Of a DNA stretch of 64,000 bases, positions 25,508-54,902 are shown in pieces. A program made the position numbers and the translations under genes. Below the pieces are notes generated by a model, which had not been told where the DNA came from, made no database searches, and worked only from the letters and a program-made list of their open reading frames with translations. The stretch covers positions 1 to 64,000 of the forward strand of contig CAUYUJ010000208.1 in NCBI GenBank assembly GCA_963575745.1, in the 5' to 3' direction. This DNA comes from Prorocentrum cordatum. Its lineage: Eukaryota. Positions within the stretch are counted from its first letter, which is position 1, and each line of letters starts with the position of its first letter.

Positions 25508-27026
25508 ATGGAGGCGGCCGCTGCCTTGCGTTTCTTTCTCAAGAAGCATGCGATGGCGACAGGGGCTCCAGACCCGGACACATGGCTGAATGACATGGTC
25601 GCGATTCTCGACCGAGCGGAGGCACGTGTCCGCCGCCCGCGCGCGCGCTCCCGCTCCCGCCCGCGCGTCCGTGCGCGCGATCCGGCCGTCCCGCGCGGCC
25701 ACCCGCGCGAGCGTCCCGTGCAACAGGTGTACACCCCGCAGGCACTCGTGTACGTCAACACAAAGAAGATTGAGATCTCGCCTGGAAAGGCTCACGCCCT
25801 CGACCAGGCTATACAGGCAAGCGCGCGCCCAGAACCGCCGCGACGGTCGCCCTGCGACCGCCGCCGTTCAGGCGGCGAAGAAGGAGTTCGCACCTGCTGG
25901 GACCACCGCGCCTGCCGGGCCAGCGGCACCCGCAGCGGACCCGCTGGCGGAGCTCACCCGCATCCTCACCAAGGATGACGCCCCGACGGTTCACGTCGAC
26001 TTCCAGGCGCAGCTGAACGCCATCACCCTGGCCAACTTGCCCACCGCGGCGTGGCCCAGGCGCGCCCCCCCCCCTCCCAGCCTGTTTCGCCGGTCCGCGG
26101 CCGCCCGTCCGGCCGCGTCGCGTCAGGACCGTGCGCGTCGATTCCCTCGCATCCGAGGTCGACCGCCTACAGAAGAAGAAAGGGCTTGCCGCCCCTTTTG
26201 TCAACGTCGACTTGCGCCTGTGGCTTCCCACGGGCGCGTCCGCCGTCGGCCGCCCACATGACGACGATGCCACCCAGGCGGGCGCGGGCGGCGGGGCCAA
26301 GCCTCGCCTGATGAATTGGACCGAGTGGCACCTCGCCTTCGACCAGTACCTCGCTGTCCCGCCCGCCGACCGTACTCGCGGACCCTCCTCGGCGGCGCAG
26401 GTACGCTCTGGCCGCTGCCGCAACGAAGCAGCTCGACTTCGCCGCGGCACTCGCACACAAGCAGATCTGCCTCCTGGCATCTTGCCGCGCGCGCCCGCGC
26501 GCCCTCCGGCCAGCGGATTCCCCGCTCGCTTCGCAGGTAGCGGCCCACGCCCAGCTCAAGGGCCGCAAAGCCCACCTGGGCGTGTTCTACGACCAGGTCG
26601 CCCGCCGCTCCTGGGCCGAGAAGGCCGCCGCTGGCGTCACAGGTTTCCAGGCCCGCCACCCCGCTCCGCCGCGCGCGCCCGCGCCCCGCCCCCCCGCCGC
26701 GGACCTCGGCATCGCAGGTGAGTCAGGCGGCCCTCGCCCTCGACGAGGTGCTGCTCCGCCAGGCGGAGCGGGAATACGATTTTGACGAGAAGAGCCTCGG
26801 CAGCGCCCCCGCCGCCACGAAGCAGGAGGGAGCCGGTCCGGCCCGAGGCCCGGCGACGCCCAAGCGCAGCCAGGCCCACCGTGCGGGCCATGGCCTGACC
26901 GCCCAGCAGAGTCAGCAGAGTCAGCAGGGCAAGCGCAGGGCCGACACCGGGGCCAAGACCGGCTCCTGGAAGAGCTGGAACAACAAGAGCAACGGCGGGG
27001 GCGGCGGCAAATGGCAGCGCCGCTGA
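25508..27026 (+). CDS. Element 1 ORF1 (gag-like), 7 exons
   Basis: Predicted introns 25622-25726, 25817-25871, 26060-26126, 26346-26400, 26477-26536 and 26651-26717 (5 GC-AG, 1 GT-AG). The spliced product MEAAAALRFF...WHLAFDQYALAAAATKQLDFAAALAHKQICL...GKWQRR* is collinear with element 2 ORF1. Confidence 0.85.
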
Positions 27027-27259
27027 TCAGCGACAGCGCGCGCCTGACGGGCACAGCCGTCAGCACGGCGCGCGGAATTTTGGGCTTGCTGCTAATTAGA
27101 GCGTCCGACGCGGTAAAGGGTCCGAGGCGCACCAGGAATGCGCGGGCCCCGCCCTCCCTCCTGCGCCCTCCACGGCGCCCCCCTCGCCCTCCACGGCGCG
27201 CCCCTCGCCTTGGCGCCCCCCTCGCCCTCCGCGGCGCGTGCGTTCAGCTTGCTTTCGCC

Positions 27260-29899
27260 ATGAAGCGCTTTCGCGAGCACGCGAGCCCGGACGAGCCGGC
27301 TCCCAAACGGTCTGTGTCTGATGCTCGCAAGTTGTCTTTCGCCGAAGCGGCCGCCCTCGAAGGCGATGCCGGCTTCGAGCCGGGCTGCAAGCTTTCGCAG
27401 GACACTTTGGCGGCGCTTGAATGGATGGCATCGAGGCCACCCGAAGAGGCGCCCAGGTGCGCGCGCAAGGCGACCGCGCGCCACGACCGAGCGCAGGTAA
27501 GGGAGGAGCGTGAAGGGGCTGTTCTGCGGGTCCTCTCCATGGCACATCAGTTCAGGACGGCCGGATTCGTCGAAATCTGGGGTCGCGGCGCGGACCCGGG
27601 CGTCGCCAACGTAGCATCCGGCGTCAACGGCCCGCTCTTCGAACGCCTGGTCGCCGATGTGGACTTCCACGACCCGAAATGCGTTGACTTCTTCCGTGAG
27701 GTGCAACGCGCGAGGGGCGGCTCTGCTTCTCGCGCCCGACGGAGCGCGGCCGGCGAAGGGTGCACCGCTGATTGGGACACTCGAAAAATCCGGCACGGGG
27801 ACGGAGATGGCGCATAAGCCGCTGATATCAGCGGAAGAGATCCTTCGAGGCCGGCGCGCGCGCGCGTCGGCAGGGGCCCGGCTTCTCCTCCCTGGCCCCC
27901 CGCCCCGCCGCGCGCCAGCCAATGCACGGGACAGAAAAGCATTGTTCAAAAGGACACGGCCAAGCCCGTGCGACGAAGCGCTGCACGAGGGCGCACTCGC
28001 CGACGCGAGCGCGGGGCGATTGACGACGCCCCGGCGACTGAGCCCCGACGACGTGCCCCCGGATGCCGCGGTAATCCCCCGCTTCGGCGTGGAGCAGGGG
28101 ACGCGGCCGGACGGCACCGCTAAGGTACCCCGACGGCCGCCCGCGCCGCTCATTCGCGGACCGCCGCCCGCGCGCCAGGTGCGCGCCGTAGACGACTGCA
28201 GCGCGGCCCACCTCAACAAGGGTACGGAGCCGCAGGAACGGATGAAGCATGACACTGTCGACGCGCTGTTTGACGCGTGTCGGAAATTGGCGCGACGCGT
28301 TTCTCGGGCCCCGACGCCGCGTGCGCTCTGCCCTGTTCAGGCACCCCTGGGGCCCTTGGAGCTCTTCAAGGCCGATATTGATTCCGCCTTCCGCAGAATC
28401 CCCTTGCGCCCGGAGCACCGACGCTTCGCTTGGGTCATCTATTGCTTCGCCGGCGTCACCTGGGGAGCCCAGCACGTTGCCCTCCCGTTCGGAGCAGGCC
28501 CGCGCGGGCCATCCCGCCCCACCCGCCGCCCCGCCGCGCGTCGCGGCGCAGTCAGCAGCGTACACAACTGGGAGAGAATCGGCGCGGCCCTAGTGGCCAT
28601 CTGCAGGCGCCTCTTGCGGATCCCAATCCTGAGGTACGTCGACGATCTGTTCGGCGTCGAGCGCTCCGGGGAGGCCCGTCTCGCTCTGTCCCCTCCCCCC
28701 CTTCCGTCGCACCCGGTCGACCCTCTCCGCGCTCGCGCAAAGGCCCAGCACGCCCTCTCGTGCGTGGTCCGGGTGATCAGGTGCATCCTGGGCCCTACGT
28801 CGGTGGCCGATAAGAAAACTGAGTCGGGCCCGTCGCTCGTGATTCTCGGACTAGCCATCTCGGTGCACCGCGCGCGACGCGTTCGCGAATGGGGGGCTAG
28901 GGCACTGTGCGTGCGGTGTCGCAGACCTCACGCAAAGGGCTGATTGCGCGCCCGTCCAAGGACAAGGTCGACAAATGGACGAACCGAATCAGGACGGCGC
29001 TTGACGACGGTTCGATGACCGCAGGCGCGCGCGTGATCGCGCGCCGCGCGCGCCGGGGGCGACACCTTTCTTTGCACAGGTGGGGCCGCCAAGCTCGCGG
29101 GCGCGTTGTCGTGGGCGGCGTCGTGGCAATTCCGCAAACTAGGCCGTGCGATGCTGCGGCCCTTGTTCGCCCACGCACACTCGGGGCGTCCGTTTCTACC
29201 GCGCCCCGCCCTGCGCAGCCTGGCGTGGTGGTTGGAAGTGTTGCAGAGAAGCGTTGCAGAGACAAGGGAATGGGAGCCCGCGGACACCCGCCCGCCGGTC
29301 CTTGCCTTCGCTGACGCCCGGGGCGAGCCCCCACGAGCGGCCGCCGTCCTCTGGATCGACGGACGTTGGGAATACACAGACCAGATGCCGCCGGCCTGGC
29401 TAACGAGGCCCCGATCGCGCGCCGGCGACCGATCGATGCAATTCGGCCTGCGCGCAGGCAATTCCAGCAGCGGAGCGACGATCAGATCGCCGGACTCGAG
29501 ATGCTCGCTTCGGCCTTGGCGATCTCCACCTGGCAGAAGGAGCTCCGGGGCCGCAAGGTTCGCCTCTTTAGCGACAACACGATCGCCGAATGGTCGTTCC
29601 GAAAGGGATCAGCGAAGTGCTGCGACCACGGGGCCATCGTCCACCACTTCTGGTCGGTGATCGGGCTGCTCCAGATCAACCTCCGGATCGACCGTGTCCC
29701 TTCCGGCGGGCCCGCGCGTTATCTCTGTCAGGTCGGGTCCCACTCCCGCGGCGCGCCAGTTGATAACATTTCTGACCTGCCCAGTCGGGAGGATTATGAT
29801 CTCATGACACGCATTGGGGCCACCTGGAGGCGCCCGTGGCTGCGGCCAGAATTCTGGGACCTCCAGCTGCCATGCCAGCTCGCGGCCCGTCCCGTCTGA
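27260..29899 (+). CDS. Element 1 reverse transcriptase-RNase H, 12 exons
   Basis: RT motifs VRAVDD, KADIDSAFRRIP, LPFGAVSS, YVDD and ILG; RNase H motifs FADA, IAGLE, SDN and RVPSVDNISDLPSR. Predicted introns 27449-27496, 27701-27758, 27850-27918, 28125-28178, 28290-28340, 28498-28551, 28674-28742, 28863-28924, 29025-29079, 29408-29457 and 29706-29759. Confidence 0.93.
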
Positions 29900-30033
29900 G
29901 CGCTCTCGCGGCCTCGCCAGTGCTCTCCTTCCCCCCGCTCCTGCTCTCCCGCCCACCCGTCACCCCGCGCTCGCTCGCGCGTAGCGTCATGCGGCAAGTC
30001 TGCCCCCGCCCCGAGGGCATTTTCAACGTATCC

Positions 30034-30471
30034 ATGGCGCGCGATCGAACACCGCCGCGGAGGTGCTGTTACGTTCGGCTGATCCAGCGAGCGCACACCG
30101 CAAGTCATCTCGCGAAGGTCGCGGCGCATTCCCTTTTCAGGAGCGAGATGCGGCAGCGCGACACGGACGCGGCGGCCTCGTGGCTGCGGGGCCGCGGGAT
30201 CCGCTCGTGGTTCCAGCTCGGGCGGCTTCCCGCGGATTCAGTGCCGTCCCTGGGCTTGGCTAGGGACGCGCGCGCGACGATCCTCCGGGCCATCCAGCTG
30301 GCCATCGAATGCCGACTGGACGAAGCACTCTGCACCTTCGGCACGGAACTCGAACCGGAGTCCAGCTGCTCAAGCAGCGAATCTGATACCATCGACTATC
30401 GCACGACGATGGTGGGCGCGCCGCAGGGCGCGGACGTCGATGACGACCCAATCGAAACGACGTCGCCTTAG
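30034..30471 (+). CDS. Element 1 small extra ORF (145 aa) with a SAM-like helical segment
   Basis: ATG at 30034 inside ORF 29836..30471. AAASWLRGRGIRSWFQLGRLPADSVPSLGLARDARATILRAI resembles the C-terminal helices of SAM domains; acidic tail. Confidence 0.55.
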   Translation: MARDRTPPRRCCYVRLIQRAHTASHLAKVAAHSLFRSEMRQRDTDAAASWLRGRGIRSWFQLGRLPADSVPSLGLARDARATILRAIQLAIECRLDEALCTFGTELEPESSCSSSESDTIDYRTTMVGAPQGADVDDDPIETTSP

Positions 30472-30666
30472 CCGCGCCGTCACCGGCCAGCGCCGGTCGC
30501 TCCCGCTCGACCCCGCGCAAGGCTCGCATCAGAGAAAGAGACGCGAGCGCCGCCCGGGAAGGCGCGTCAGTAACGCGGCACGAACGCTCTCACACGCGAA
30601 GGGGGCTATCGAGAGGCGCGCAGGGCGCGGGGCGACCTCTCTCAACGCGCCCCTCGGCGCGCCAGA

Positions 30667-32238
30667 ATGAAGCTCGCCGACCAGATCGCCGTTGCGACCC
30701 CGTGGGCGTCACCCACGGTCGTTGAGGAAGTCGCCAAGTTTCTGGTTTCTTGCGATGTGTTCGCGATCTCATCTGTGCGGGCGGTTGGCGCACCGGAAAA
30801 CTGGAGCGGCTACGTGAATCTGTCGCCCGACGCGCAGCGCGCGATCGCGCTCTTCGCGCGAGCAAAGCCGCCGCCGGGCCCGCCACCTGCGGCGGCGTTC
30901 GTGAGTGACGAGGTGCCTGCGGCGCCCGTGTGCGCTCAGCCGTGTGTCTCCTCCGCCGCTGGCTCCTCCTCTTCCTCCTCGTCCTCCTCCTCCTCCTCGT
31001 CCTCCTCGCCCCCCCCGCGGGCGGGTGGTAGGAGTCCAGCCGCGCAGGCACCCGCACGCCCGCAACAGGAGGGCGTACTCTCGCAGCGGCTGCAATTAGC
31101 GCGGGCGACGGCCGCGCTGAAAGCGTCGCCCCTGGGCTCGAGAAGAGGAGGCCCGCGCGCCGCAATTCGACGCCTGGCCGTTGCGCCGAGCGACCCCGAA
31201 TTCAGGAAGCGCGCCTTATTCGGGGCCCGGTGCGCCGCCGTCCTCAACGGTGCCCCGCGCTCCATCGGCACGTGGACAGCCGGCCTGAGGTGCTGGTTCC
31301 GTTTCGCCAAATCGCAGCTCGGAAAAGGGGACAGCCCCCTCCCGCCAACTGCGGACGAGCTATGTCTTTGGGCTTTGTGCTTCTCGAACCCCGGCACTTT
31401 TGCCAATTACAAAGCCCAGGTCGACAAGGCCTGCACGCTGCTGGGCCTCGACCGCTCAGCGTTCAGCAGCCCCGCCGTTTCGCGCGCAAAGGCCGCGATC
31501 AAGCACCGTGCGCCCCAGCCTGACCCGCGACCTCCCCCTGTCACGCGGAAGGCGTTAGTCGCGATGTTGCCGCACGTGCCTGACCCTCAGGTGCGAGCGC
31601 TGTTCGTAGTCGCCTTCGCACTGGCCTTGAGGCTTCCCTCGGAGGCGCTGTTGATCAGCATAGGCGACCCAGCACGGGCGGCCAACTTCCGGTTCACGCA
31701 GGAGGAACTGGACCGCCCAGTGCCGACCATCGTGCTTTTCAACACGAGCGAGGCGGTCGTACTCCACCTCTCGAGGCGAAAGCATAAGCCCAGGCCTAGC
31801 GAAGTCAGGCGCTCGTGCTGGTGCAGCATCTGCACCGCGACCTGCCCAGTGCACGCCCCGCGCGCCCTACTGGGCGACCTCGCGCCGGGTGCGTCTCCTT
31901 TTGCCCACCTGGCAAAGCCGACCAGAGCCGGGCGCGTGCTCCCCGTGCCAGCAATTACCCGCAACCTGCGCAGGTCGGCGCAAGCGGCGGGCCTCCCCAA
32001 TGCCGCCCGCATCACCTCGAAGTGCCTGCGGCGCGGCCACACGGAGACTCTCCGCCAAAGCGGGGGGAGCCTCGCCACCATCTTGAGAGCCGGCAACTGG
32101 AGGTCCGGCGCATTTAAGGCCTACCTGGACCAGCCTGCCCTGGAAGACGCGGCGACGGGCGAGGGCATGGCCCTCTCCGCCAGCGCGGGCCCTGAGGCCG
32201 CGGGCCATGACCCCGCAGGCGCTGCATCTCAGCCGTAA
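30667..32238 (+). CDS. Element 1 tyrosine recombinase (523 aa, one continuous ORF)
   Basis: LRLPSE (catalytic R), RRKHK, CWC..C...CPVH, KCLRRG (HxxR position), AGNWRS and AYL (catalytic Y). Confidence 0.93.
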   Translation: MKLADQIAVATPWASPTVVEEVAKFLVSCDVFAISSVRAVGAPENWSGYVNLSPDAQRAIALFARAKPPPGPPPAAAFVSDEVPAAPVCAQPCVSSAAGSSSSSSSSSSSSSSSPPPRAGGRSPAAQAPARPQQEGVLSQRLQLARATAALKASPLGSRRGGPRAAIRRLAVAPSDPEFRKRALFGARCAAVLNGAPRSIGTWTAGLRCWFRFAKSQLGKGDSPLPPTADELCLWALCFSNPGTFANYKAQVDKACTLLGLDRSAFSSPAVSRAKAAIKHRAPQPDPRPPPVTRKALVAMLPHVPDPQVRALFVVAFALALRLPSEALLISIGDPARAANFRFTQEELDRPVPTIVLFNTSEAVVLHLSRRKHKPRPSEVRRSCWCSICTATCPVHAPRALLGDLAPGASPFAHLAKPTRAGRVLPVPAITRNLRRSAQAAGLPNAARITSKCLRRGHTETLRQSGGSLATILRAGNWRSGAFKAYLDQPALEDAATGEGMALSASAGPEAAGHDPAGAASQP

Positions 32239-32342
32239 TGCGCGCTCGTCGCGCCCTTCATCCCGCACGCGGTAAGAAACGTCGCGACGTTGGCAGTGGG
32301 GGCGCGCGCACACGACGGCTGACGCCGGCCTGCTGTTGCATT

Positions 32343-33056
32343 GGGTTGTAGCAGCCAGGCGTCGCCGTCGAGGCGCGCGCCGCCACCGCCTTGTGCTCGG
32401 CGGGGGCGGCGCCGCCCGACGCGCCGCCGCACCCATCGCAGGATGGTTGCTGCGACCGCGTGGCGGACGCCGCAGAGCGCCGCGCCCGCAGCGCTGTGGT
32501 GAGCGAACAGCCGAGGCACGAATGCTGTCTCGCGGGCACAGCAGCGAGGACGCGATGCGCGTGCGTCCGCGCGCCCCGCAGCGAGCGCGTGAGGTTGCGA
32601 GGGGCGCTTCGCCGCGAGGCGACGACACGCGAAACGCGAGAAAGATGGAGCCGCGGTTTTGTCGGATGCGCCGCGGCTAGGTCGCCGCGGAGGGAGCGCA
32701 CGCGAGCGTTCACCGCGGCACCGGCCAGCCTTGCCGCGCACAGGAACAGTCATGCGTGGCGGCTAGGCCGCCGCGGAGGGAGCGCGCGCGACCCGTCCGC
32801 GGCGCCGACCAGCCTTGCCGCTCGCAGGTTCCATAATTGTTTGCGGCAGGCGGGGCGCCCATCTTCCTGTGGGCGCGTTTCGCCCCACCCACATCCGCCC
32901 GGGTTGTAGCAGCCAGGCGTCGCCGTCGAGGCGCGCGCCGCCACCGCCTTGTGCTCGGCGGGGGCGGCGCCGCCCGACGCGCCGCCGCACCCATCGCAGG
33001 ATGGTTGCTGCGACCGCGTGGCGGACGCCGCAGAGCGCCGCGCCCGCAGCGCTGTG
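32343..33056 (+). repeat. Element 1 3' block: B1 (156 bp), A2 (386 bp), 16-bp spacer, B2 (156 bp)
   Basis: gggttgtagcagcc...cgcagcgctgtg at 32343 and 32901; the A copy starts at 32499. Confidence 0.95.
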
Positions 33057-39474: not shown

Positions 39475-39929
39475 TCAGGCAACCTCGAGATGGTCCAAGT
39501 GGCGATTCTCCTACCTCCTAGGACCTAATTCCTAGTTCCCATAGTTCTTAGTGTCCTAGTGTCCTAGTTGTGGGCTTAGCTACCTACACTGTAGGTCGAC
39601 AGGCAGCTAGAGGCGACCCCCCTCGCAGTGACCTTCCCTTTGGCGGCGTTGCTAAGGCCTGCGGCCCTTGTCCATCCGCCACAACCCGCGATGCATGTGA
39701 GGGGCGTGCTGACATGGGTCTTGTATGCTCGGTTGAATGGAGGGGGGCGGATGATCGTGGCCCCTGTTTTATTTGGAACCCCCGTCTGCGTCGGCGGATC
39801 TCCCCCTCGCGGCTGGGAATGCTTGCCGCGGCAGGTGGGGGCGCGGTGGGGGTCGTGATAGTCCGCCCCGCCCCTTCACCGAATTCTTTTTGTAGGATAG
39901 GGTGTACAGTGTAGGGTGTAGGGTGTAGA

Positions 39930-42120: not shown

Positions 42121-42149
42121 TTGAATTGTTGGGCGGGGGGGCCGCCGAA

Positions 42150-43045: not shown

Positions 43046-43980
43046 ATGTCGGCGCCGCGGGGCCCTTTGGCGCCGCCATCGGATGACACCGCTGCGAGCA
43101 TCGTGGACTACCCCTACCCTGGCGGGGGCACCGACCCGTGGGTACCCACCGATGCGCTCCACCGTGGCCCTCTCTCTCCAGTGGACCCTGACTCCACGGA
43201 CCCCCCCACGTCCAGTTCGGGTGAGGTCCCGCTGCCGCCGACGCATGAGCCGCCCCCAGGGCTGGCCGTGATGGTGCCACCACCGCCGCCAAAGGAGCCG
43301 CCAGAGCCGCTCGCCAAAGGCCCGCCAGCGCACGCGCAGTGGGTGCCGGTCCACGAGGGCAATACCGTGGTCATGGTGCCCGCCAAGCCGCCATCACCGC
43401 GGGCGACATCGCCCGTGCAGACGCCCGAGCCCATCCCCATGCTCGACGGCGTGCCGGCGAAGCCAGCCCCGCGGCCCGCGCCAGCCAAGCCGCTCCCGAA
43501 GTCCAGCGGGGTGCCTGCCAGCATATGGTTGGGGGCCACGCCCAAGCGCAAGGCGCACCCCCCTGCCCTTCGCGAGCGCCGCAGCGCGCCTGGCACCCGC
43601 TGGCGCTTCCAGCTCGAGCTCGGGCTACGCCAAGCCGCCCCCGAAGACCAGCGGGGTGCCTGCCAGCATATGGCTGGGGGCCACGCCCAAGCGCAAGGCG
43701 CCCCCCCTGCCCTTCGCGAGCGCCGCAGCGCGCCTGGCCCCCGCCGGCGCCTCCAGCTCGAGCTCGGGCTACGCCGAGCCGCCGCCCATTATGTTTCAGG
43801 CCGAGCGGCCCGCGCGTGAGCGCGCCCTGGCAGCCCGGACGCGCCTCCAGAGCGTCCCGGGGGACAGGTCAGCGGCCCCGCCCCCGCCAGCAGAGGAGGC
43901 GTCACCGGAGGGGCCCAGCGACGTGCCCACGCCGACGCCTGCCCCGGCCGAGCCGCAGTGGCAGCCCGCGCCCAAGGCTA
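43046..43980 (+). CDS. Pro-rich exon with an internal 48-codon tandem duplication and a 1-nt frameshift
   Basis: MSAPRGPLAPP... GVPASIWLGATPKRKA is encoded at ~43509 and ~43654 (spacing 145 nt); the first copy has one extra base beside a C run. Confidence 0.5.
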
Positions 43981-43986
43981 CCCGCG

Positions 43987-44375
43987 GTCGTCGTCGTCGT
44001 CGTCGTCGTCGTCCTCCTCCTCCTCCTCCTCCTCCTCCTCCTCTTCCTCCTCCTCCTCCTCCTCATCCTCCTCCTCCGCCTCCCCCCACCCCCCCTCCTC
44101 CTCCTCCTCCGCCTCCTCCTCCGCCTCCTCCTCCTCCTCCTCCTCCGCCTCCTCCTCCTCTTCCTCCTCCTCCTCCCCCTCCTCCTCCTCCCCTCCTCCC
44201 CTCCTCCTCCTCCTCCTCCTCCTGCTACTCCTCCTCCTCCTCATCATCCTCTTCCTCCTCCTCCTCCGCCTCGCCTCTTCCTCCTCCTCGTCTCCCACCC
44301 CCTTTTCCCGCCTCCTCCCCCTTCCTCCCGCTTCGCCCCCCTCCTCCCCCTTCCCCTCCCCCCCGCCCTCCCCCT
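43987..44375. repeat. (GTC)n/(CCT)n low-complexity tract
   Basis: Directly visible. Confidence 0.9.
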
Positions 44376-45932: not shown

Positions 45933-46132
45933 CTCCCCTTCCACTCCGCTCTGCGCTCCGCTTCCCGCGCGCCGAATTTCCGAATTACACTTGAGCGAGG
46001 TGTTCCAGGTGCATGCGCTGAATCGCCCCGCGCCGCCTCGTCTGAAGAGATAGACGCGATTGCCCGCCAGCGGCCATGGTGGAAAAAACGCCGTGCAGGG
46101 GAAGTGGAGCGCAGAGCAGAGTGGAAGGGGAG
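45933..46132. repeat. 34-bp inverted repeat pair (45933-45966 and 46099-46132) with 2 mismatches
   Basis: ctccccttccactccgctctgcgctccgcttccc versus gggaagtggagcgcagagcagagtggaaggggag. Confidence 0.85.
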
Positions 46133-46682
46133 TTTGCAGCATGCCGCATGTGAGCTTCCAGATGCATGGGCTGTGATGTTGCAGCAGTGCCATTGGTCAC
46201 AGTGTCGGGTGTCCGTTGTATTGATGCGCAAATCGAGCCGCGCGCGCAGGGCCTCGACCCCGCCTGCTGCCGCCGTCGGTGGGAGCGGCGCGGCGCGAGG
46301 CTGCCCCCCGCGGGCGGCTGCGACGGGCCCAGGCCCGACGCACCGCCGCTTGGGCGGCCTCGCGCCACGCCTGCGCGCAGCAGACAGGGCGGAAGGGTGG
46401 GAGAAATAACGCGCGCCAGGGAGGCACCCGCCGCGCGCGCGCGCGGGGCGCGCGCGCGGCGCCTCCTCCAAATGCAAATCGCCTGCGAAGCGCACGCGCC
46501 GCGGGGGCAGCGACCCCCCCCCGCGGCGACGCAACCCCGGCGCTAGCAAATCACCTGCGAAGCGCACGCGCCGCGGGGCAGCGACCCCCCCCCCCGCGAC
46601 GCGCAACCCTGGCGCGCGACGGCGCGATGGCCCGCGCCTGCGCAGCGAGGCCGCGGTCGCGTCGCACTGCCGCGCGCGCGAC

Positions 46683-48588
46683 CTACGCGCAACCGTGGCC
46701 GATTTGTGCCCGCCCACAACGGTGAACGTCCGCGTCTGCGAGCGGAAAAACCGAGCCGCGCGTGCAGGGCCTCGACCCCGCCTGCTGCCGCCGTCGGTGG
46801 GAGCGGCGCGGCGCGAGGCTGCCCCCCGCGGGCGGCTGCGACGGGCCCGGGCCCGACGCACCGCCGCTTGGGCGGCCTCGCGCCACGCCTGCGTGCAGAC
46901 CCAATGCCGCGCGGCACGCAGGCGACACGGGCCGGCAACGCGCGTCCACCCGCTGCCGAACGCGCGGGGGCAGAGCACGGGCGCCGTCGCGCGCGCCCGC
47001 CCACGCACAGAAGCGAAACGTGGCGGCGCTGGCCGCCGGCGCCCAGCAGGCACCCTTGTCCGAATCCGACTCCAGCATGTGCGCCTGGCGCGAGCAGCGC
47101 GCCGCGGCGCGGGCGGAGGGCGCGTGGCCCCGCCTCCACGACCGCGTCCCTTTCCAGATCGTCACGGTCGAGATACGCCATGAAAGCGCAGGACCGCCAC
47201 TCCCCGGCCGCGAGAATCTCGGCCAGCGTCGCGCCAGCCTCCTGCAGGTCCTTGGCGTGGCCCCTGCGGAGGTCATGCAACCGAAACAGGCTCGCTCCCT
47301 GGACACCGAGGGCAGCGAGCATCTCGCGCAGGGTCGGCAGCGCAGCGGCCGCCGAGATGCCTCCGAAGAGCCCGCGGCCCAGCCCGCAACGCGCCACCCA
47401 GGGGCCCAGGGTGTGCACGGGGCACGTGGCGCGGCACGATGAGCACCAGCACTTCCGCGACAGGCGACTGCCCTGCGGCCGGTTCTTCCGCCGCCGCAGC
47501 AGCAGCGTGAGCTCCGATTTGCCCAGCACTAGCGCCGCTTGAAAGGGCGGCGCGTCGCCGGCGTCGGCCACGCGCACGGCCGGCAACGCCTCGCTGGGAA
47601 CACGCAACAAGAACGTGTAGGCGAAAAGGAAATGCATCGACGCGCGGAGCCACTCGGGGCGGCGCGCGCCCAACTCGACCAGCGCGGCGACCGCGCTCTT
47701 ACGGATGAACAAGCGCGGGCGCGGAGTCCAATCGGCCCGCGCCCGGACGGCGGCGCGCGCACGCCTGACCTCGGGGCGGTCGAACACGGCGACGCAGACC
47801 CCAGTCAGGAGGCAGCCGACCTTAACGTAGCTGCAGTAATTTGCGTACGTCTCCCCGCAGCGAAAGGGCGCTCCAGGCGACCAGGTCCGCGCAGGCTGGC
47901 GGGAGCTGCATGCACGGGTATTTCAACATTCTGATGCAGTAGGCCTCCCAGCATTTGAGGCCGCTTCTCACGCTTGGGAGCGACCGTGCGCATGGTTGCA
48001 GCATAGCGCGAACGCGTTCCTCCTCCCGCCAGCGGGCCGCGTCCGCCGGACTGCGGAGGCGAGCAGCGGCCTCGGCGAGCGCCGCCCGGGGCCCGCGCGT
48101 TATTGGCAGCGCGACCGGCGCGCCCAGCTGGTCGAGGACGCTCGGGACGGGCGCCTCGCGAGCCACGGCGCGCGGGCATGCGCGAGCGCGCGGGGCCGAT
48201 GACGCGCGTGACCCCGGGGCGCTCGGCGCCGCGCGTCTCGCCGGCGACCGGCTGCGGGCGGGCGCGCGCCGTCCAACTGCCGAGCCCACGGCGACGGGCG
48301 CGCCTGCGAGGCGCACGCGCGGCGGGGGGGGGTGGGGGGCGCGCGCGCCAAAAACCTTCGCGCAGCCGAGCCTCGGCGCGCAGCAATCTTCGCGGCTCTG
48401 AATAATTCGTGCAGGACTTCGACATTGGCCTGCGCGGTGACCGGCCAACCTTCCAGGTCTGCGGCGTCTGCACTGGCGAGCTCGCAGGCTCGTGCGAAGC
48501 CGTTCTCAGCCAGGAAATCAGCAGCCCAGGCGACGGCCGTCCTGGGCGCTTTCGGGCGCAAGGAACACAATTCAAGGAATAGCGACAT
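46683..48588 (-). pseudogene. Element 2 tyrosine recombinase, intron-containing, with an apparent 2-nt frameshift at ~47864; C-terminal end uncertain
   Basis: LLRVPSE, RRKNRP, CWCSSCRATCPVH, LHDLRRG and AGEWRSCAFMAYL. WSAL and FRCGETYANY lie in different frames. GC-AG intron 47085-47133 gives DAVVE|AHMLESDSD; further intron(s) probable at ~48170-48355. Confidence 0.85.
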
Positions 48589-48781
48589 GATGCCGCGCGG
48601 CACGCCTGACAATGCGAGCGACGCGCCTGAGGCACTGGCCGCGTGCACTCCGCTTGCGACAAAACGCGGGGCCCTAGGATGACAAGCGCGGCGGCGCGCC
48701 GAACGCTTTGCCGCGCCCAAACTTAAGTATCGCGACGCCCCGACGCACAAGATGGCACCCGGGCGCGACATGGCGCGCGGT

Positions 48782-51155
48782 TTAGCCGAAGAGGCGGGCC
48801 ACAGAGAGAGCGCCCCAGGCATCCGCGTGCCAGAATTCTTCGTCGAGCCACGGGCGCGTGCGCACCGCGCCGATGCGTAGCAGGAGTTCGTCGTCCCCCC
48901 TGCGACACGCTGCGCCCGCGGCCAGCCCGCAGCACCGCGCGGCGCGCACGGGCGCGCCGAGAAGGCAAATCGGCCAGATTCTCAGCCGTGGGCACGCGGA
49001 AAACCGCGAGGTCAACGTCGAGCTCCACCGCGCGCCTCCACATGGAGTGGACGATGCACGAGTGGTCGAAGGATTTCGCGGCGCCCTTCCGCAGGCAAGA
49101 CTCCGCGCCGGTATTGTCGCTGTAAATATGCAAGTCGCAACCTTGCACTTCCCCTGAGCGCAGCGAAGACGAGGGGCCGGACCTGCCCGCCGGCGCGGGC
49201 AGTCGCACGCGAAAGCAATGCCTGCAAAGGTGCACATGCCCAGCGCGATAGACAGGAGCTCCAGCCCCTGAATCTGGTTGTCCCGGCGACGCTGGAACGA
49301 CGCCATCAAGGAATCCGGGACGACCATGGAAGTGAAACGGATGCCCGTGGCGGTGACGAGCACCGCGGCCACGCACGGTGGTTGGCCCGACGCGTCCGCG
49401 AAGAGAGTTGCGCGAGGCCGCGCCTTGTCGGCCCACGGCCGCGCTTGGCACAAGTCCATGGCCAAGACCTCGCGCCACCACTGCAGGGCAAGCATCAACG
49501 GCTCATGGGCCTTCGATGCCCCGCGATGCGATTGCGCGTACAACGGCCTGCGAGCACGAAGCGCGGCGCCCCGCCCCCCCGGGCGCCCGGGGGCAGCGCC
49601 GCGCCTGAGGAGGGCGCGCCCCAGGCGGCGGAAGAGATGCGGCGCTGCCCAGGCCAAGCCCCCGGCCAGCTTGGACGACGCGCCTGAACAGCGAACGCAA
49701 GGTCCCGACACATTAGGGGGGACGCGCGAGCCGCCTGGCGCGAGGGCGCGCGTCGCGAGCGCCTCGCCGATGACACGCTGCCACTTGGCGGTCTTCGCGG
49801 GTGCGGGACGCGCGCAGAACGCGCGTGGCAGCACCTGGCGATGCGCGCAGCCGGCCGGCCGGCGCGTCGCGCCAAGGCCGCCCCGCCTTGATTTCGAGGC
49901 CGAGGATGACCAGCGGGGACCCCCAGGCGACCTTGTCCGGCGCCACCGCGCCTGGGCCGAGCATCAGCTGAATTAGCTCCGCCAGCTGCGCTGCTGCGTG
50001 CTCCACCACTTCGGGGTGATCCGGCCCAAAATAATCATCCACGTATCGCAGCGCGGCGATCCGCAAGAGCACGCGCGCCGCCTCCGCGATGAAGGCGCCC
50101 ACTCGCGCCCAGCTGTGCACCGACGACGTGGCCCCGAAGGGCGCTGCCGCGTGCTGCGCCGCCCAGACCTGCCCGGCGGCGCTGAACACGATCCAAGCGA
50201 ACCGGCGGTGCTCAGCGCGAATGGGCACGCGACGAAAGGCAGCGTCGATGTCTGCCTTCCAGAGGGCGGGTGCCCGCCCCGCAACTTCCTGGAAGATGCG
50301 AGCTGCTTCGAAAAGCGCGTCCACGGCATCGTGGTGGAGCCGCTCCTGAGGCCGCGTCGCCTCGTTAATCCTAGCCTTGGTCATGTCGTCGACCAACCGG
50401 AGTTTCGAGGACCCGTCTTCACGGAGCTGCTCAACCGCAAACCTCGGAGCGATGACGGCCCCGTCCAGGCACACGTCGCGGAGCGGCACCGGGCAACTGA
50501 TGCGCCCCAGCTCGGCCTCGTCCCGTGTCTTGCGGAGGATGGCGTCGCCGTGCGCGCCGTCGCGGAGGCCACAGGAAATGTCGCGATTTGTCGACTCGGC
50601 GTTGCCGAGCAGCTCCGCGATGCCCAGACGGGGAGGGAACACCTCTGTGCTGCCGTGGCCCGACCGCGGGAGCTCGCCGACGAGGGGCGCCCCCGTCCTG
50701 AAGAATTCCACGCAGCCTGGGTCGCAGAAGGCAATGCGCTCCGCGATCTCTGCGCAGAGAGGCCCGTTCACGTGCTGTGCGACGCGCCGCATGGCGGGGT
50801 CCACCCCCCGGAACCATTCTTCCACGGCGCCACTGGCCCGGAGAGCCCGATCCCTTTCGCGAAGCGCCGCGAGTTCGCCCTCGCGGAAAGCCACCACGTC
50901 GGCGGGGGCGGTCTGCGCGGCCCACCGCGCTGCCTCAGCGGCCGCGGGCGGCAAAGCCGAGGCCGCGGCGGGCCGCCACTTGCCCCAGAGCGCGGGGTCG
51001 CCGTCCAGCGCCCTTGCCAGAAAGGTAAGTTTCTCCGCGTCGCCGCCGCTACAGCCGCCGGCCGCGACGCAGATGTCGCGCCACGCGCTGTCGCTGCAAC
51101 GCCGAGACCAATCGCTCCTGAATTGCGGCCCTGGTGGCGCTGGCGGCGCCGGCAT
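48782..51155 (-). CDS. Element 2 reverse transcriptase-RNase H, 6 exons
   Basis: LRLVDD, KADIDAAFRRVP, PFGATSS, YVDD, FADAS, IQGLE, SDN and RVPTAENLADLPSR. Predicted GC-AG introns 49835-49886, 49684-49734, 49548-49604, 49154-49221 and 48900-48957. Confidence 0.92.
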
Positions 51156-51736
51156 CACCTGACGCGCGCCGCTGGCTCGCGCGCGACCGAGAGCCGGGAA
51201 AGCGCGCCTTGCGAGATTTGGCGACGACGCATGCAGCCCCAGGCGCCGCCCGCTTTCGCGCGCCAGATGCGGGCGGCGGGGGCGGCACCGGCACGGCAGG
51301 CATTGCACAAGATTGCAAACCGCGGACGTGGACAAGGCGCCAAAGCGTAGCGAAAAGCGCCCTCGGAACGCACGCTGCCCCGCGGAACTCCCCCGCACGC
51401 CCCGCCCAGGCTGGCCGCGGCCAAGCCGGGCACTCGCAGCGCGGCGCGGAAAGCGAAGCGGCCTCCGCGGCAACAGCGCACGCGGCATGTCCCAGCACGC
51501 GAGCGGGGGTCCTGCGCACGGCGCACGGGGCCATTTTTAGCGACAAAGCGTAGAACTGTCGGGCGCGCCCTGGTCACGGCCCCGACCCGGCGCGGGCGGA
51601 GGCAGGCTTTTGCGCGCGAGCCGTTCTGACGGCTGAAGGGGCACCACCCCTACGGGGGCTCGCGCGCGCCCTGCCAGGGCGGCGCTCAGCGCTGCGCCGG
51701 GCGCGGCGGCGTCCGTACCTTCCTCGTGTCCTTTTT

Positions 51737-53237
51737 CTACCAATCGCTGCCCCACGAGCGCTCGCGCTTCTGGCCCTTCGGCCAATCGCTGCCCCAGGAG
51801 CCGCTGCTCCAGCTCTGCGCGGCGCGCCACGTCTGGCTGGCGCCGCCCGCCCCGCGCGCCTTCTCGGGAGCGCGGGCCGCCGGTGCCTGCACGCGCGGAA
51901 ACGGCGGAGAAAGGTGGCAGAAGCGAATCCGCGCGGCGCGACGCTCGCCGTCGCGTGGGTGGCGCCGTCTTCTTTGTCGCAAGCATCCCGCGCCAGCTGT
52001 AGGGCGCGCGGGTCGACCCGCAGGATCGTCTTCCCCAGCTTGAAATCTGGGCCCCCCGAGCGTAGCTGCTCGGCCCATAGCTGCCACGCGCCGGCACAGA
52101 CGCAGGGCGCCGCGCAAGCACGAACGCAGGGGCGCGCCTTCCGCGCCTCCTCGTCGTACACGATACCGAGGTGCACGCGGCGCTTCGAGGCCGCCGCCTG
52201 CGCGGCAACGCGCGGCGAACAGAGAGCGACGAGAAATCGCGCGCGTGCAGCCTGAACCGCCACCTTCAAGCAGTTGTCGCGATGCGCCTGCACCTCAGCC
52301 CACGTGAGCTGGCCCGTGGCGACCAGCGCGACCATGCACCTGCCGCGCGCGGCGCGATAACAGGCAGGCGCGCGGGGGGGGCGCGCGACGGGCAGGTGGC
52401 GCCGGTTCCAAGCCAGTTGCCACTGGCAGAGGGTTAAGTAGGCCTTCTTCTCGGGCCCTTTCTTCACCGCCGCCACTTCCTGCGGGGCGAGCGCCCGCGC
52501 GCGGGCCAGGCAACGCGCGCGCGGCACGAGCCTTGGCGAGGTCACGAATGTCCTTGCTGGCGCCGGACGATCCGTCAGCCTCCTCTTCGAAATCGCGAGG
52601 GCCCGAGCGGGCCCACTCGGGCACCCACTTGCGGATGTCCGAGTACAGGAAGACGCGCGCTTCCTCGCTGGATTCCTTCTTCTGCCGCTTCAAGACTTCC
52701 GCGTTCAACGCGTCAAGCATGTCGGAGCTACCGGCGCACGGGACCAGATGCGAGAACCAGCGCGCGCGCGCGCGAGCGCGCCTGGGCCAGAACTCTTGGA
52801 GGTTGGCCAGCGACGCCTCGCCGAGGAGAGGGCCCAAGAGCACGCGGGCCGGCTTTTCCTGCGAACGCGCCGCGCGGGGCCACGCGAGCCCGAGATCGCG
52901 TCGAGATCGCTTGCGCCTCGCTGGTGCCCGTCTTGAGCGCGGCCAAGAGGGCGGCCGCGTTCTCCGCCGCCGAGGGCGCTGGAGGGGCGGCCGCCGCCGA
53001 GCCCCCAGCCACCGGCGCCGGCGTGCTCGCCGCGGCGATCCCCGCGCGCACGAGGCGCTTCTGCGCGGCGCCGAGTTCCTTGTCGGCAAAAGAGAAATCC
53101 TCGAATGCCGCGCCTTCTAAATCGGCGATCGTCGCCACACCTTGGCCCTTGAGCGCGGTCACCGCGGCTTCGAGCCAACTGGCCTCGTGCGCCGACGCGC
53201 CGTCCAAGGCGCCAAGAAAACTGCCGAGGTCGCCCAT
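51737..53237 (-). CDS. Element 2 ORF1 (gag-like), about 8 exons
   Basis: Spliced MGDLGSFLG...FWPSSDMLDALNAEV...WQLAWNRCMVALVATGQL...HLGIVYDEEARKLWAE...SWGSDW* aligns with element 1 ORF1. Introns include 52728-52781 and 52340-52402. Confidence 0.8.
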
Positions 53238-54889: not shown

Positions 54890-54902
54890 CACACACACAC
54901 AA

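What the first reader, a model, noticed from the sequence alone, without database searches (positions are those of the whole stretch)
26060..52781. Four intron positions are conserved in position and phase between two highly diverged elements, while the rest are lineage-specific
Seen: ORF1 after WP, phase 2 (26060-26126 vs 52728-52781). ORF1 AFDQ|Y vs AWNR|C, phase 2 (26346-26400 vs 52340-52402). RT LGLAIS|T vs LGLEIK|V, phase 0 (28863-28924 vs 49835-49886). RT TAG|GAAKL vs APG|ASSKL, phase 1 (29025-29079 vs 49684-49734). Element 1 has 7 introns in the N-terminal and core RT region where element 2 has none; element 2 has YR introns where element 1 is one ORF. Inference: these introns are ancestral to the family and survived many transposition cycles, with block-wise loss or gain perhaps from partially spliced templates.
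Basis: partly seen in the sequence, partly recalled or inferred. Interest (0 to 1): 0.9.

Follow-up and report, generated by a model that had tools for sequence, protein, structure and literature searches.

The report
Intron-bearing retrotransposons sharing four intron sites
Two distantly related copies of a jumping gene that copies itself through RNA are each broken up by many tiny introns, four of them at exactly the same spots, which is odd because copying through RNA should normally erase introns.

Summary
The window carries two diverged tyrosine-recombinase retrotransposons of the Ngaro/DIRS kind. E1 lies on the + strand at 22416-33056 and looks intact, with 100%-identical split repeats. 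E2 lies on the - strand at about 46230-53400 and is older and frameshifted. Formal spliced alignments place all four claimed interruptions at identical codon and phase, both against intron-free third-party relatives and between E1 and E2 directly. The chance of four or more such coincidences is 8e-7 under uniform placement and 9e-5 if only G|G sites are allowed.

The segments behave as spliceosomal introns:
- They are 48-69 nt long and follow an AG|G[C/T]...CAG|G consensus that my aligner did not enforce.
- Twelve of 26 are not multiples of three.
- Removing them gives stop-free ORF1 and RT-RNase H proteins in E1.

I found no RNA data.

Among 79 related loci from marine metagenomes, 61 carry similar ~59-nt introns, with 100 mapped positions in all 81 sequences. 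These positions include all four shared sites. Eighteen of the 81 sequences have none in RT-RNase H.

Introns are clearly heritable within clades. Deep common ancestry of the four shared sites is plausible but unproven: one site sits in an invariant glycine codon and is scattered on the tree. I found no publication describing intron-rich Ngaro/DIRS elements.

The parts
22416..22801 (+). E1 terminal repeat A1
   Evidence: 100% identical to 32499-32884 over 386 bp
24369..24971 (+). E1 5' region: about 179-nt tandem repeats upstream of ORF1
25590..27026 (+). E1 ORF1 (gag-like). It gives 395 aa plus a stop after removal of 4 introns.
   Evidence: Spliced frame is open from the Met to the stop. Aligns to intron-free ORF1 of L018 and L021.
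26060..26126 (+). E1 ORF1 intron, 67 nt, phase 2. SHARED site 1 (after W-P).
   Evidence: also present in L002
26346..26400 (+). E1 ORF1 intron, 55 nt, phase 2. SHARED site 2.
   Evidence: same site in L022 and L060
26477..26536 (+). E1 ORF1 intron, 60 nt (3n), phase 0. Not shared with E2, whose nearest intron is 5 residues away.
   Evidence: same site in L027
26651..26717 (+). E1 ORF1 intron, 67 nt, phase 0. Not shared with E2.
   Evidence: same site in L002
27260..29899 (+). E1 RT-RNase H ORF. It gives 671 aa plus a stop after removal of 11 introns.
27449..27496 (+). E1 RT intron, 48 nt (3n), phase 0
   Evidence: same column as L023, L028, L029, L031
27701..27758 (+). E1 RT intron, 58 nt, phase 0
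   Evidence: Twelve loci have an intron one base away, at phase 1.
27850..27918 (+). E1 RT intron, 69 nt (3n). The placement is ambiguous; 27866-27934 is the alternative.
28125..28178 (+). E1 RT intron, 54 nt (3n), phase 0
28290..28340 (+). E1 RT intron, 51 nt (3n). The placement is ambiguous; 28308-28361 is the alternative.
28498..28551 (+). E1 RT intron, 54 nt (3n), phase 1
28674..28742 (+). E1 RT intron, 69 nt (3n), phase 0
28863..28924 (+). E1 intron, 62 nt, phase 0. SHARED site 3 (after LGLxIx).
   Evidence: also in L078
29025..29079 (+). E1 intron, 55 nt, phase 1, inside a conserved Gly codon. SHARED site 4.
   Evidence: also in L024, L029, L031, L035, L039, L078
29408..29457 (+). E1 RNase H intron, 50 nt, phase 2. 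E1 only.
29706..29759 (+). E1 RNase H intron, 54 nt (3n), phase 1. E1 only.
30667..32238 (+). E1 tyrosine recombinase ORF with no intron. The stop-to-stop frame starts at 30574.
   Evidence: fold matches Cre
32343..32498 (+). E1 repeat B1
   Evidence: 100% identical to 32901-33056
32499..32884 (+). E1 repeat A2
32901..33056 (+). E1 repeat B2, the right end of the element
53381..54117 (-). E2 5' region: about 70-nt tandem repeats upstream of ORF1
51964..53237 (-). E2 ORF1 from the Met at 53237. The N-terminal join and the C-terminus are unresolved.
52728..52781 (-). E2 ORF1 intron, 54 nt (3n), phase 2. SHARED site 1.
52480..52531 (-). E2 ORF1 frame-restoring intron, 52 nt. This is the best canonical candidate; the aligner chose 52518-52458.
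52340..52402 (-). E2 ORF1 intron, 63 nt (3n), phase 2. SHARED site 2.
52198..52248 (-). E2 ORF1 intron, 51 nt (3n), phase 0
   Evidence: L022 has one at the neighbouring residue
52081..52137 (-). E2 ORF1 intron, 57 nt (3n), phase 0
   Evidence: same site in L022 and L027
48782..51155 (-). E2 RT-RNase H ORF from the Met at 51155. The RT core 51155-49887 is uninterrupted.
   Evidence: RT fold
49835..49886 (-). E2 intron, 52 nt, phase 0. SHARED site 3.
   Evidence: Close relatives P0002 and P0003 read the next exon in other frames.
49684..49734 (-). E2 intron, 51 nt (3n), phase 1. SHARED site 4.
49548..49604 (-). E2 intron, 57 nt (3n), phase 2
   Evidence: also in L078
49154..49221 (-). E2 RNase H intron, 68 nt, phase 1
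   Evidence: also in L078
48900..48957 (-). E2 RNase H intron, 58 nt, phase 2
   Evidence: same column in L016, L044, L060, L062, L063
47058..48651 (-). E2 tyrosine recombinase region. It carries a one-base frameshift near 47866, so this copy is broken.
47085..47133 (-). E2 YR C-terminal intron, 49 nt, phase 0
   Evidence: four references agree
46748..46898 (-). E2 repeat B1
   Evidence: 97% identical to 46230-46380
46230..46380 (-). E2 repeat B2. The stretch between the repeats, 46381-46747, would be A2; no A1 copy was found in the window.

Best explanation
E1 and E2 are two diverged members of one family of tyrosine-recombinase retrotransposons. ORF1 is about 34% and RT-RNase H about 45% identical. 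The layout is Ngaro-like: ORF1/gag-like, RT-RNase H, YR, flanked by split direct repeats A1-[ORFs]-B1-A2-B2. Their genes are interrupted by short spliceosomal introns, mostly with GC-AG borders.

Shown:
- The four interruptions lie at identical codon and phase.
- The segments carry a splice consensus.
- Their removal restores intact, homologous proteins.
- The same kind of intron, at partly the same positions, occurs in many relatives from marine metagenomes.

Inferred:
- The proteins are made from fully spliced mRNA.
- New copies are reverse-transcribed from unspliced (or partly spliced) full-length RNA, so the proteins must act in trans.
- Introns are therefore inherited along element lineages.
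- Copying of spliced or partly spliced RNA removes single introns or whole blocks, as in E2's RT core and L002's RT-RNH.
- The four shared sites are most likely survivors from the common ancestor of the E1 and E2 lineages.
For: Identity of the elements:
- The RT core model (pLDDT 94.3) matches HIV-1 RT with Foldseek E 8e-10.
- The E1 ORF3 model (pLDDT 67.3) matches Cre with E 1.9e-5.
- Both elements carry the YVDD motif.
- Pfam hits are weak: RVT_1, RT_RNaseH, Phage_integrase and zf-CCHC, some of them only in relatives.
- E1 has the A1...B1-A2-B2 repeat layout at 100% identity.

Shared sites: with P(>=4) = 8e-7 uniform and 9e-5 under the G|G restriction.

Intron nature:
- Features the aligner did not enforce are strongly enriched over the 26 introns: exon -2 A in 17, exon -1 G in 23, acceptor -3 C in 22, and exon +1 G in 20.
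- The last three of these occur together in 15 of 26 introns, against 3.8% of 3329 candidate G[TC]..AG segments.
- Lengths are 48-69 nt, and 12 of 26 are not multiples of three.
- Spliced E1 ORF1 (395 aa) and RT-RNH (671 aa) have no internal stop.
- Exons show codon-position GC of 0.65/0.51/0.77, while introns are flat at 0.83/0.77/0.77.
- In three close E2 relatives (E2, P0002, P0003) the exon after the site-3 intron is read in three different frames while its proper frame stays conserved.

Heritability:
- 236 introns pass the filter in 61 of 79 metagenome loci, with median 59 nt, IQR 56-62, and 166 GT against 70 GC donors.
- 52 of 100 positions are shared by two or more sequences.
- Introns cluster on the tree.
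- E1's identical repeats imply that all its introns passed through the last transposition.

No sign of recent exchange: the exon between sites 3 and 4 is only 9 of 33 identical, against 254 of 592 overall.
Against: - No RNA data exist, so splicing is inferred from sequence alone.
- The aligner requires G[TC]...AG, so those borders are partly by construction. Segments whose length is a multiple of three (14 of 26, all stop-free) cannot be told from coding insertions by frame. One such call in the E1 YR (31698-31748) I judged to be a coding insertion.
- Site 4 (468/1) lies in an invariant Gly codon, a G|G site in all sequences. It shows no clustering on the tree, with 5 changes for 5 holders.
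- Several positions recur one or two bases apart in other lineages, for example 91/0 in E1 against 91/1 in 12 loci. This hints at hot spots or sliding.
- E1's nearest relative L002 has no RT-RNH intron.
- Five of the 8 mapped E1 RT-RNH positions are unique, so intron gain must also be common. That makes parallel gain less far-fetched.
- Close pairs of loci show only slightly lower identity in introns (0.973) than in exons (0.980).
Confidence: 0.55

Rival explanations
1. Parallel gain. The introns are real, but the four shared sites were hit independently in the E1 and E2 lineages. The host would insert introns at a high rate into preferred motifs (AG|G or G|G) that conserved codons keep in place.
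For: - Site 4 is G|G in every family member and is scattered on the tree.
- Sites 1 and 4 are CAG|G-type in E1 and in E2, except that E2's site 1 is followed by C.
- Many lineage-specific positions exist: 48 of 100 occur in one sequence only.
- Near-coincident positions in different phases exist.
- E1's sister L002 lacks RT-RNH introns.
Against: - Even when placement is restricted to G|G sites, four coincidences have P = 9e-5.
- Sites 2 and 3 are not AG|G in E1, where the exon ends in CA and CG.
- Site 2 is also occupied in L022 and L060, and site 1 in L002.
- Positions overall follow the tree.
Confidence: 0.25
2. DNA-level spread. The elements, or at least the intron-rich ones, multiply as DNA without an RNA step, for example by recombinase-mediated excision and insertion of circles or by segmental duplication. 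Introns would then never be exposed to loss.
For: - The elements encode a Cre-like recombinase and carry direct repeats that could recombine.
- Intron retention needs no special RNA handling under this model.
Against: - RT and RNase H stay intact and conserved in E1 after splicing. They are also intact across the family, where 74 of 81 sequences need no frameshift.
- Identical A and B repeat pairs are what reverse transcription of this element class regenerates, according to the model described in PMC8547959.
- Intron-free blocks are the footprint expected from RNA-mediated loss.
Confidence: 0.08
3. Not introns. The segments are low-complexity coding insertions (those with length a multiple of three) and compensated frameshifts in decaying copies. 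The G[TC]..AG borders would be an artefact of a GC-rich sequence and of my aligner.
For: - 14 of 26 have a length that is a multiple of three, and all are stop-free.
- 73 of 78 intron reading frames lack stops anyway.
- Public gene calls read through several of them.
- E2 is demonstrably a damaged copy.
Against: - Twelve segments are not multiples of three, yet each restores the homologous frame exactly.
- The unenforced consensus is enriched, with p from 1e-5 to 3e-9 per position.
- The length range is narrow.
- There is no codon-position GC pattern.
- E1 is otherwise intact with identical repeats.
- The same picture appears in 61 of 79 independent loci of 45-69% GC, mostly with GT donors and G at intron position +5 in 130 of 236.
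Confidence: 0.07
4. Exchange between lineages. Recombination or template switching between E1-like and E2-like RNAs in the same cell moved intron-bearing segments from one family to the other.
For: Both elements sit 13 kb apart in one genome. Retroelements are known to recombine (general knowledge).
Against: Exons flanking the shared sites are no more alike than the rest: 9 of 33 identical between sites 3 and 4, against 254 of 592 overall. Introns at shared sites show no homology beyond GC-rich words.
Confidence: 0.03

Closest known systems
Ngaro retrotransposons (DIRS order), e.g. those of the high-GC marine flagellate Cafeteria burkhardae (Hackl et al. 2021, PMC8547959; passages read)
   Same: - GC-rich elements with an A1-[ORFs]-B1A2B2 split-repeat layout.
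- The same ORF order: gag-like, RT+RNase H, tyrosine recombinase.
[quoted passage not shown]
   Different: - Those elements are given as about 6-7 kb with Pfam-recognisable domains. E1 spans 10.6 kb and its domains fall below the Pfam cut-offs.
- The passages I read mention no introns in them.
- I did not test whether the window's elements belong to those types.
SymbioDIRS elements of Symbiodinium (de Mendoza et al. 2018, PMC5890265; passages read)
   Same: - An 'A-coding region-B-A-B' repeat layout.
- An RT too divergent for Pfam seeds.
- A separate YR ORF.
   Different: Those are described as intronless genes, and some carry a DNMT domain. No DNMT is seen in E1 or E2.
Penelope-like elements (Craig et al. 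2021, PMC8557442, passages read; that paper cites Arkhipova et al. 2003)
   Same: They are retroelements that keep introns through retrotransposition, described there as 'highly unusual among retroelements'.
   Different: - A different RT clade.
- A GIY-YIG endonuclease instead of YR.
- Usually one intron, often in the 5' UTR, not 10-15 introns spread through all coding regions.
Retroviruses and Ogre-type LTR elements with spliced and unspliced RNA pools (recalled, not checked here)
   Same: The logic is the same: unspliced RNA serves as the genome and spliced RNA as the messenger.
   Different: There pol is translated from the unspliced RNA. Here even RT cannot be made without splicing, so the enzyme cannot act on its own messenger.
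Introners (Gozashti et al. 2025, PMC12130899; passages read)
   Same: Frequent intron gain in aquatic unicellular eukaryotes, which could be a source of the lineage-specific introns.
   Different: Introners are transposons that become introns in host genes and are similar to one another. Here the introns lie inside a transposon and show no mutual homology.

Membership tests
Ngaro-like / DIRS-order tyrosine-recombinase retrotransposon | Reverse transcriptase domain | tested here: met
   - YVDD motif.
- The model of the E2 RT core (pLDDT 94.3) matches HIV-1 RT with E 8e-10.
- Pfam RVT_1 scores only E 0.0094, below the cut-off.
- A profile search of PDB sequences found nothing.
Ngaro-like / DIRS-order tyrosine-recombinase retrotransposon | RNase H domain after RT | tested here: inconclusive
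   The region aligns along its full length to relatives. One of them, P0019, passes the Pfam RT_RNaseH cut-off (25.9 bits against 24.8). The window's own exons were not scored as a spliced protein.
Ngaro-like / DIRS-order tyrosine-recombinase retrotransposon | Tyrosine recombinase instead of a DDE integrase | tested here: met
   The E1 ORF3 model matches Cre with E 1.9e-5. Conserved R, K, RRGH, W and Y positions are present in alignment A2. Pfam Phage_integrase gives only E 0.09, and only in the relative L002.
Ngaro-like / DIRS-order tyrosine-recombinase retrotransposon | Split direct repeats A1-[ORFs]-B1-A2-B2 | tested here: met
   E1 has A of 386 bp and B of 156 bp, both pairs 100% identical, with 16 nt between A2 and B2. 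E2 has only the B pair, at 97%; no A1 was found.
Ngaro-like / DIRS-order tyrosine-recombinase retrotransposon | Absence of the methyltransferase domain typical of DIRS1/PAT groups | tested here: inconclusive
   No Pfam hit in the raw ORFs between RNase H and YR. The 29900-30660 stretch was not analysed further.
Ngaro-like / DIRS-order tyrosine-recombinase retrotransposon | Multiple copies in the genome / mobility | tested here: inconclusive
   - There are two family members in the window.
- Five database proteins are 90-94% identical to E2.
- Contigs branch inside E1 in the runs laid.
- No whole genome is held, so copies could not be counted.
Spliceosomal (U2-type) introns | GT/GC-AG borders with an extended consensus | tested here: met
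   The borders were required by the aligner. The flanking consensus, AG| before the donor and C at -3 and G after the acceptor, was not required and is strongly enriched.
Spliceosomal (U2-type) introns | Removal restores an open, homologous reading frame | tested here: met
Spliceosomal (U2-type) introns | Removal seen in RNA | not testable with these tools
   No RNA run is listed as holding the stretch. The four runs laid behave as DNA and show no joint at any intron.
Introner elements | Introns are copies of one mobile sequence family | tested here: not met
   An all-against-all search of the 26 introns found only 10-20-nt GC-rich word matches.
Penelope-like elements | GIY-YIG endonuclease and a telomerase-like RT | tested here: not met
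   The enzyme set is RT, RNase H and a Cre-like recombinase. No GIY-YIG hit appeared in the Pfam scans.

The most novel reading that the evidence does not exclude
A large, so far undescribed branch of Ngaro-like retrotransposons in marine protists lives with up to 15 spliceosomal introns spread over gag, RT-RNase H and, in some members, the recombinase.
- Every protein then needs complete splicing, while the template for copying must stay unspliced. The element therefore works strictly in trans.
- It would use its weak, mostly GC-AG, introns as the switch, and perhaps the tag, that separates messenger from genome.
- Some of these introns would have been passed on since before the E1 and E2 lineages split.
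Probability: 0.4. Interest if true: 0.85.

Novelty: new variant of a known kind. Interest (0 to 1): 0.75.

Why it matters
Copying through RNA is the textbook way to lose introns. Retrotransposon genes are therefore treated as intron-free by annotation pipelines and by most of the literature. PMC12477816, for example, analyses 'CDS' for retrotransposons and 'exons and introns' only for DNA transposons.

A family that keeps 5-15 introns per element across deep divergence raises three points:
- It shows that a retroelement can separate its messenger and genome roles by splicing alone.
- It gives a natural system for measuring intron gain and RT-mediated loss on a fast clock.
- It explains why such elements are fragmented or missed by gene callers and Pfam-based screens.

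It also warns that 'hypothetical proteins' read through these introns are already in public databases.

Tried and rejected
- RNA evidence: no RNA holder is listed for 25600-32300. Laying runs X6, X1, X8 and X11 on 22300-33100 gave DNA-like contigs, and none of the 5 reported joints lies at an intron. So neither spliced RNA nor intron-free DNA copies were seen. I count this as no evidence either way.
Earlier findings of this scan: none for this genome.
- Pfam on raw ORFs gave nothing at E 0.01, and only sub-threshold hits at E 1. A profile of the RT alignment against PDB sequences gave 0 hits.
- IMG/VR viral contigs: 102 pattern matches, none confirmed.
- Using database proteins as stand-ins for cDNA failed. 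The close pairs (P0019/L011, P0025/L006, P0033/L028) read through introns whose length is a multiple of three, and none bridges a junction.
- Comparing introns and exons between near-identical loci had little power: identity 0.973 against 0.980, and both classes show indels that are not multiples of three.
- Host introns for comparison: no host gene in the window could be modelled. Pfam found only a helicase ORF and a weak DNMT hit.
- Excess of lengths that are multiples of three: 14 of 26 in E1/E2 (p 0.025), but 75 of 203 distinct introns in the wider family (p 0.15). Absence of in-frame stops is uninformative, since 73 of 78 frames are open.
- Aligner artefacts I set aside:
  - long 'introns' of 100-400 nt in weakly conserved N- and C-terminal parts;
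  - 27323-27391, which is coding according to the L002 alignment;
  - 31698-31748 in the E1 YR.
- Filters and dropped rows:
  - The family map kept only introns of 38-130 nt with flank scores of at least 8. This dropped three of E1's own eleven RT-RNH introns.
  - The tree used the 74 of 81 sequences with at least 330 aa.
  - The parsimony test used 57 sequences at no more than 90% identity.
- Literature: searches found no paper describing introns inside DIRS/Ngaro elements. PMC3783388 has no occurrence of 'intron'. Supplements were not opened.

Full report
WHAT IS THERE

The window is about 55-73% G+C. It holds two homologous elements and no third copy.

E1 lies on the + strand and has the full split-repeat architecture:
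- A1 is 22416-22801 and A2 is 32499-32884.
- B1 is 32343-32498 and B2 is 32901-33056.
- Both repeat pairs are 100% identical.
- The layout is therefore A1-[ORFs]-B1-A2-(16 nt)-B2. This is the arrangement described for Ngaro and related DIRS-order elements in PMC8547959 and PMC5890265 (passages read).

E2 lies on the - strand:
- It has a B pair at 97% identity (46230-46380 and 46748-46898).
- No A1 copy is detectable in the window. An assembly gap lies at 55108-55207.

Both elements encode three products:
- A gag-like ORF1.
- An RT-RNase H protein with a YVDD motif. The RT core model has pLDDT 94.3 and matches HIV-1 RT with Foldseek E 8e-10.
- A tyrosine recombinase. The E1 ORF3 model has pLDDT 67.3 and matches Cre with E 1.9e-5.

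Pfam sees these domains only below its cut-offs. The same was reported for Symbiodinium DIRS RTs (PMC5890265).

THE FOUR POSITIONS

I wrote a protein-to-DNA aligner that allows G[TC]...AG introns in all three phases, plus frameshifts at a cost. I used intron-free relatives as neutral rulers. These were database proteins and long ORFs from metagenome loci.

- Against P0009, P0007 and the L002 RT, the two RT-linker introns of E1 and E2 fall on the same reference residue and phase. These are 414/phase 0 and 447/phase 1 in P0009 numbering.
- Against the ORF1 of L021 and L018, the two ORF1 introns also coincide. These are residue 281/phase 2 of L021 and residue 217/phase 2 of L018.
- With the L021 ruler, E1's second ORF1 intron was modelled as a frameshift. 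With the L018 ruler, E2's first ORF1 intron was missed. Each of these two ORF1 sites therefore rests on one of the two rulers, plus the direct alignment.
- The direct alignment of the spliced proteins finds exactly these four coincidences. ORF1 has 175 aligned residues at 34% identity, and RT-RNH has 634 at 45%.
- About 0.07 coincidences are expected by chance, or 0.23 if only G|G sites are eligible. This gives P(>=4) = 8e-7 and 9e-5 respectively.

ARE THEY INTRONS?

Evidence for:
- Removing 4 introns from ORF1 and 11 from RT-RNH of E1 gives frames open from Met to stop, of 395 and 671 aa. Seven of these 15 introns are not multiples of three.
- Features my aligner did not ask for are strongly enriched over the 26 introns of both elements:
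  - A at exon -2 in 17.
  - G at exon -1 in 23.
  - C at acceptor -3 in 22.
  - G after the acceptor in 20.
  - The last three occur together in 15 of 26, against 3.8% of all 3329 G[TC]..AG segments of 45-70 nt in the elements.
- Lengths are 48-69 nt with a median of 56. There are 22 GC donors and 4 GT donors.
- Exons have the usual codon-position GC pattern (0.65/0.51/0.77 in E1). The segments are flat, including those whose length is a multiple of three, at 0.86/0.79/0.78.
- E2, P0002 and P0003 are at least 90% identical in the RT core. In these three, the exon after the site-3 intron is read in three different frames by straight translation, while its correct frame stays conserved. So that segment changes length freely.

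Evidence against, or limits:
- 14 of 26 lengths are multiples of three (p = 0.025), and all of those are stop-free. However, 73 of 78 intron frames are stop-free anyway, and the wider family shows no such excess, with 75 of 203.
- The aligner can mistake an in-frame coding insertion for an intron. I rejected one such call in the E1 recombinase.
- There is no RNA evidence. No RNA run is listed as holding the stretch, and the four runs laid show no joint at any intron.

THE REST OF THE MAPS

E1:
- Two more lie in RNase H.
- The recombinase has none.

E2:
- Three further introns lie in the linker and RNase H part (49604-49548, 49221-49154, 48957-48900).
- Three further introns lie in ORF1. One of them is uncertainly placed; 52531-52480 is the most canonical choice.
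- One lies at the recombinase C-terminus (47133-47085).
- The frame break near 47866 in the E2 recombinase is a one-base frameshift, not an intron. Together with the 97% repeat identity, this marks E2 as an older, dead copy.

THE FAMILY

Of these, 217 were confirmed and the best 80 were kept, giving 79 loci.

- Aligning all 79 to P0009 gave 236 filtered introns in 61 loci. Eighteen of the 81 sequences, counting E1 and E2, have none in RT-RNH.
- The median length is 59 nt (IQR 56-62). Donors are GT in 166 and GC in 70. G stands before the donor and after the acceptor in 77% each, and G at intron position +5 in 130 of 236.
- Seven loci needed one frameshift.
- On a MAFFT alignment of the spliced proteins there are 100 distinct (column, phase) positions. 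Of these, 52 are shared by two or more sequences and 20 by four or more.

The four sites recur in relatives:
- Site 3 is also in L078.
- Site 4 is also in L024, L029, L031, L035, L039 and L078.
- Site 2 is also in L022 and L060.
- Site 1 is also in L002.

Other relations worth noting:
- E2's RNase H intron 48957-48900 shares its column with L016, L044, L060, L062 and L063.
- L002 is E1's nearest relative on the tree. It has no RT-RNH intron, but it carries two 63-nt, in-frame, AG|GC...CAG-bordered segments in ORF1 at E1's positions.
- L022 has introns in ORF1 but none in RT-RNH.

ANCESTRAL OR PARALLEL?

- Within clades, introns are inherited. E2 and L078 share four positions, and the L042/L060/L062/L063/L077 group shares 58/0, 96/0 and 568/2.
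- On 57 non-redundant sequences, the summed parsimony changes are 71, against 91.3 for shuffled labels, with a minimum of 86 in 200 shuffles.
- For the deep E1-E2 sharing the picture is mixed.
  - Site 3 needs 2 changes for 3 holders.
  - Site 4 needs 5 changes for 5 holders, no better than shuffled. In that count L078's intron, two columns away, was not pooled with E2's.
  - Site 4 splits an invariant glycine codon, so every member offers G|G there.
- Five of the 8 mapped E1 RT-RNH positions are unique among 81 sequences, so gain is frequent in these lineages.
- Loss should be easy for a retroelement, so many losses are not costly.
- I put common descent of the four sites at a little over one half and parallel gain at about one quarter.
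- Recent exchange between the two lineages is unlikely. The exon between sites 3 and 4 is only 9 of 33 identical, against 254 of 592 overall.

HOW IT MOST LIKELY WORKS

This section is inference.
- Full-length RNA from A1 to B2 has two fates.
- Fully spliced RNA is the only messenger that can give ORF1 and RT-RNase H, because seven E1 introns break the frame.
- Unspliced RNA is the template that passes the introns on.
- RT therefore cannot copy the RNA it was translated from, and the element must work in trans.
- The predominance of GC donors, generally the weaker class (recalled), would leave part of the RNA unspliced.
- Copying partly or fully spliced RNA gives daughters that lack single introns or blocks. 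This fits E2's RT core, L002 and L022.
- E1's 100%-identical repeats argue that an intron-bearing template was used in its last insertion.

COMPARISON AND NOVELTY

- By architecture and enzymes, the elements are Ngaro-like members of the DIRS order.
- Intron retention is known for Penelope-like elements and is called 'highly unusual among retroelements' there (PMC8557442).
- Seven full-text searches and the passages read turned up no description of introns inside DIRS or Ngaro elements.
- The Cafeteria study only remarks that gene prediction fragmented its Ngaros.
- I may be missing subscription-journal reports. My memory of older DIRS/Ngaro papers is not reliable on this point.
- The host remains unidentified. 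GC donors at about 30% in the relatives and a G after the acceptor resemble what I recall for dinoflagellates, but nothing here tests that.

Noticed in passing
window 1-8668: A large tandem duplication. 1-3061 matches 5638-8668 at 94%, with further partial copies (1-768 against 4437-5198; 4309-5098 against 5511-6304) in about 70% GC DNA.
   Followed up: no
window 61872-63998 (-): A 709-aa open frame running off the window end. It has an AAA_30 / PIF1-like helicase domain (Pfam E 4e-12), so it may be another mobile element.
   Followed up: no
window 55399-56397 (+): A weak, sub-threshold match to C-5 cytosine DNA methylase (Pfam E 0.0096, 15.8 bits against a cut-off of 22). It lies just beyond the assembly gap upstream of E2.
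   Followed up: no
window 24369-24971 and 53381-54117: Both elements carry tandem repeats between the 5' repeat region and ORF1: about 179-nt units in E1 and about 70-nt units in E2. E1 also has 2.8 kb of very GC-rich sequence between A1 and ORF1 whose role is unknown.
   Followed up: partly
L002:1343-1405 and L002:1899-1961: E1's nearest relative is otherwise one continuous ORF per gene. It keeps two 63-nt, in-frame, stop-free segments with AG|GC...CAG or TG|GC...CAG borders at exactly E1's ORF1 intron sites. As called, only introns that can be read through survive in this element.
   Followed up: partly
L021 (9326 nt): This metagenome contig has the ORF order RT (708 aa), YR (459 aa), ORF1 (549 aa), RT (708 aa). 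It is a tandem or circularly permuted copy, as expected if circular or concatemeric forms exist. Its ORF1 has a CCHC zinc knuckle.
   Followed up: no
family alignment columns 91, 213, 251, 383, 531, 642, 680: Introns of different lineages sit at the same codon but in different phases, for example 91/0 in E1 against 91/1 in 12 loci. This could be sliding, hot spots or alignment noise. Column 251 lies in a variable loop and may partly be coding insertions.
   Followed up: no
window 38700-39530, 43950-44320, 54870-55107: Long microsatellites: (CA)n, (CACG)n-like and (CCT/GAG)n runs. One of them abuts the 100-N gap at 55108-55207.
   Followed up: no
P0001-P0005, P0019, P0025, P0033: Public protein records for this family are straight translations that read through introns or run on in the wrong frame after them. 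Database 'proteins' of these elements are therefore partly artefacts.
   Followed up: partly
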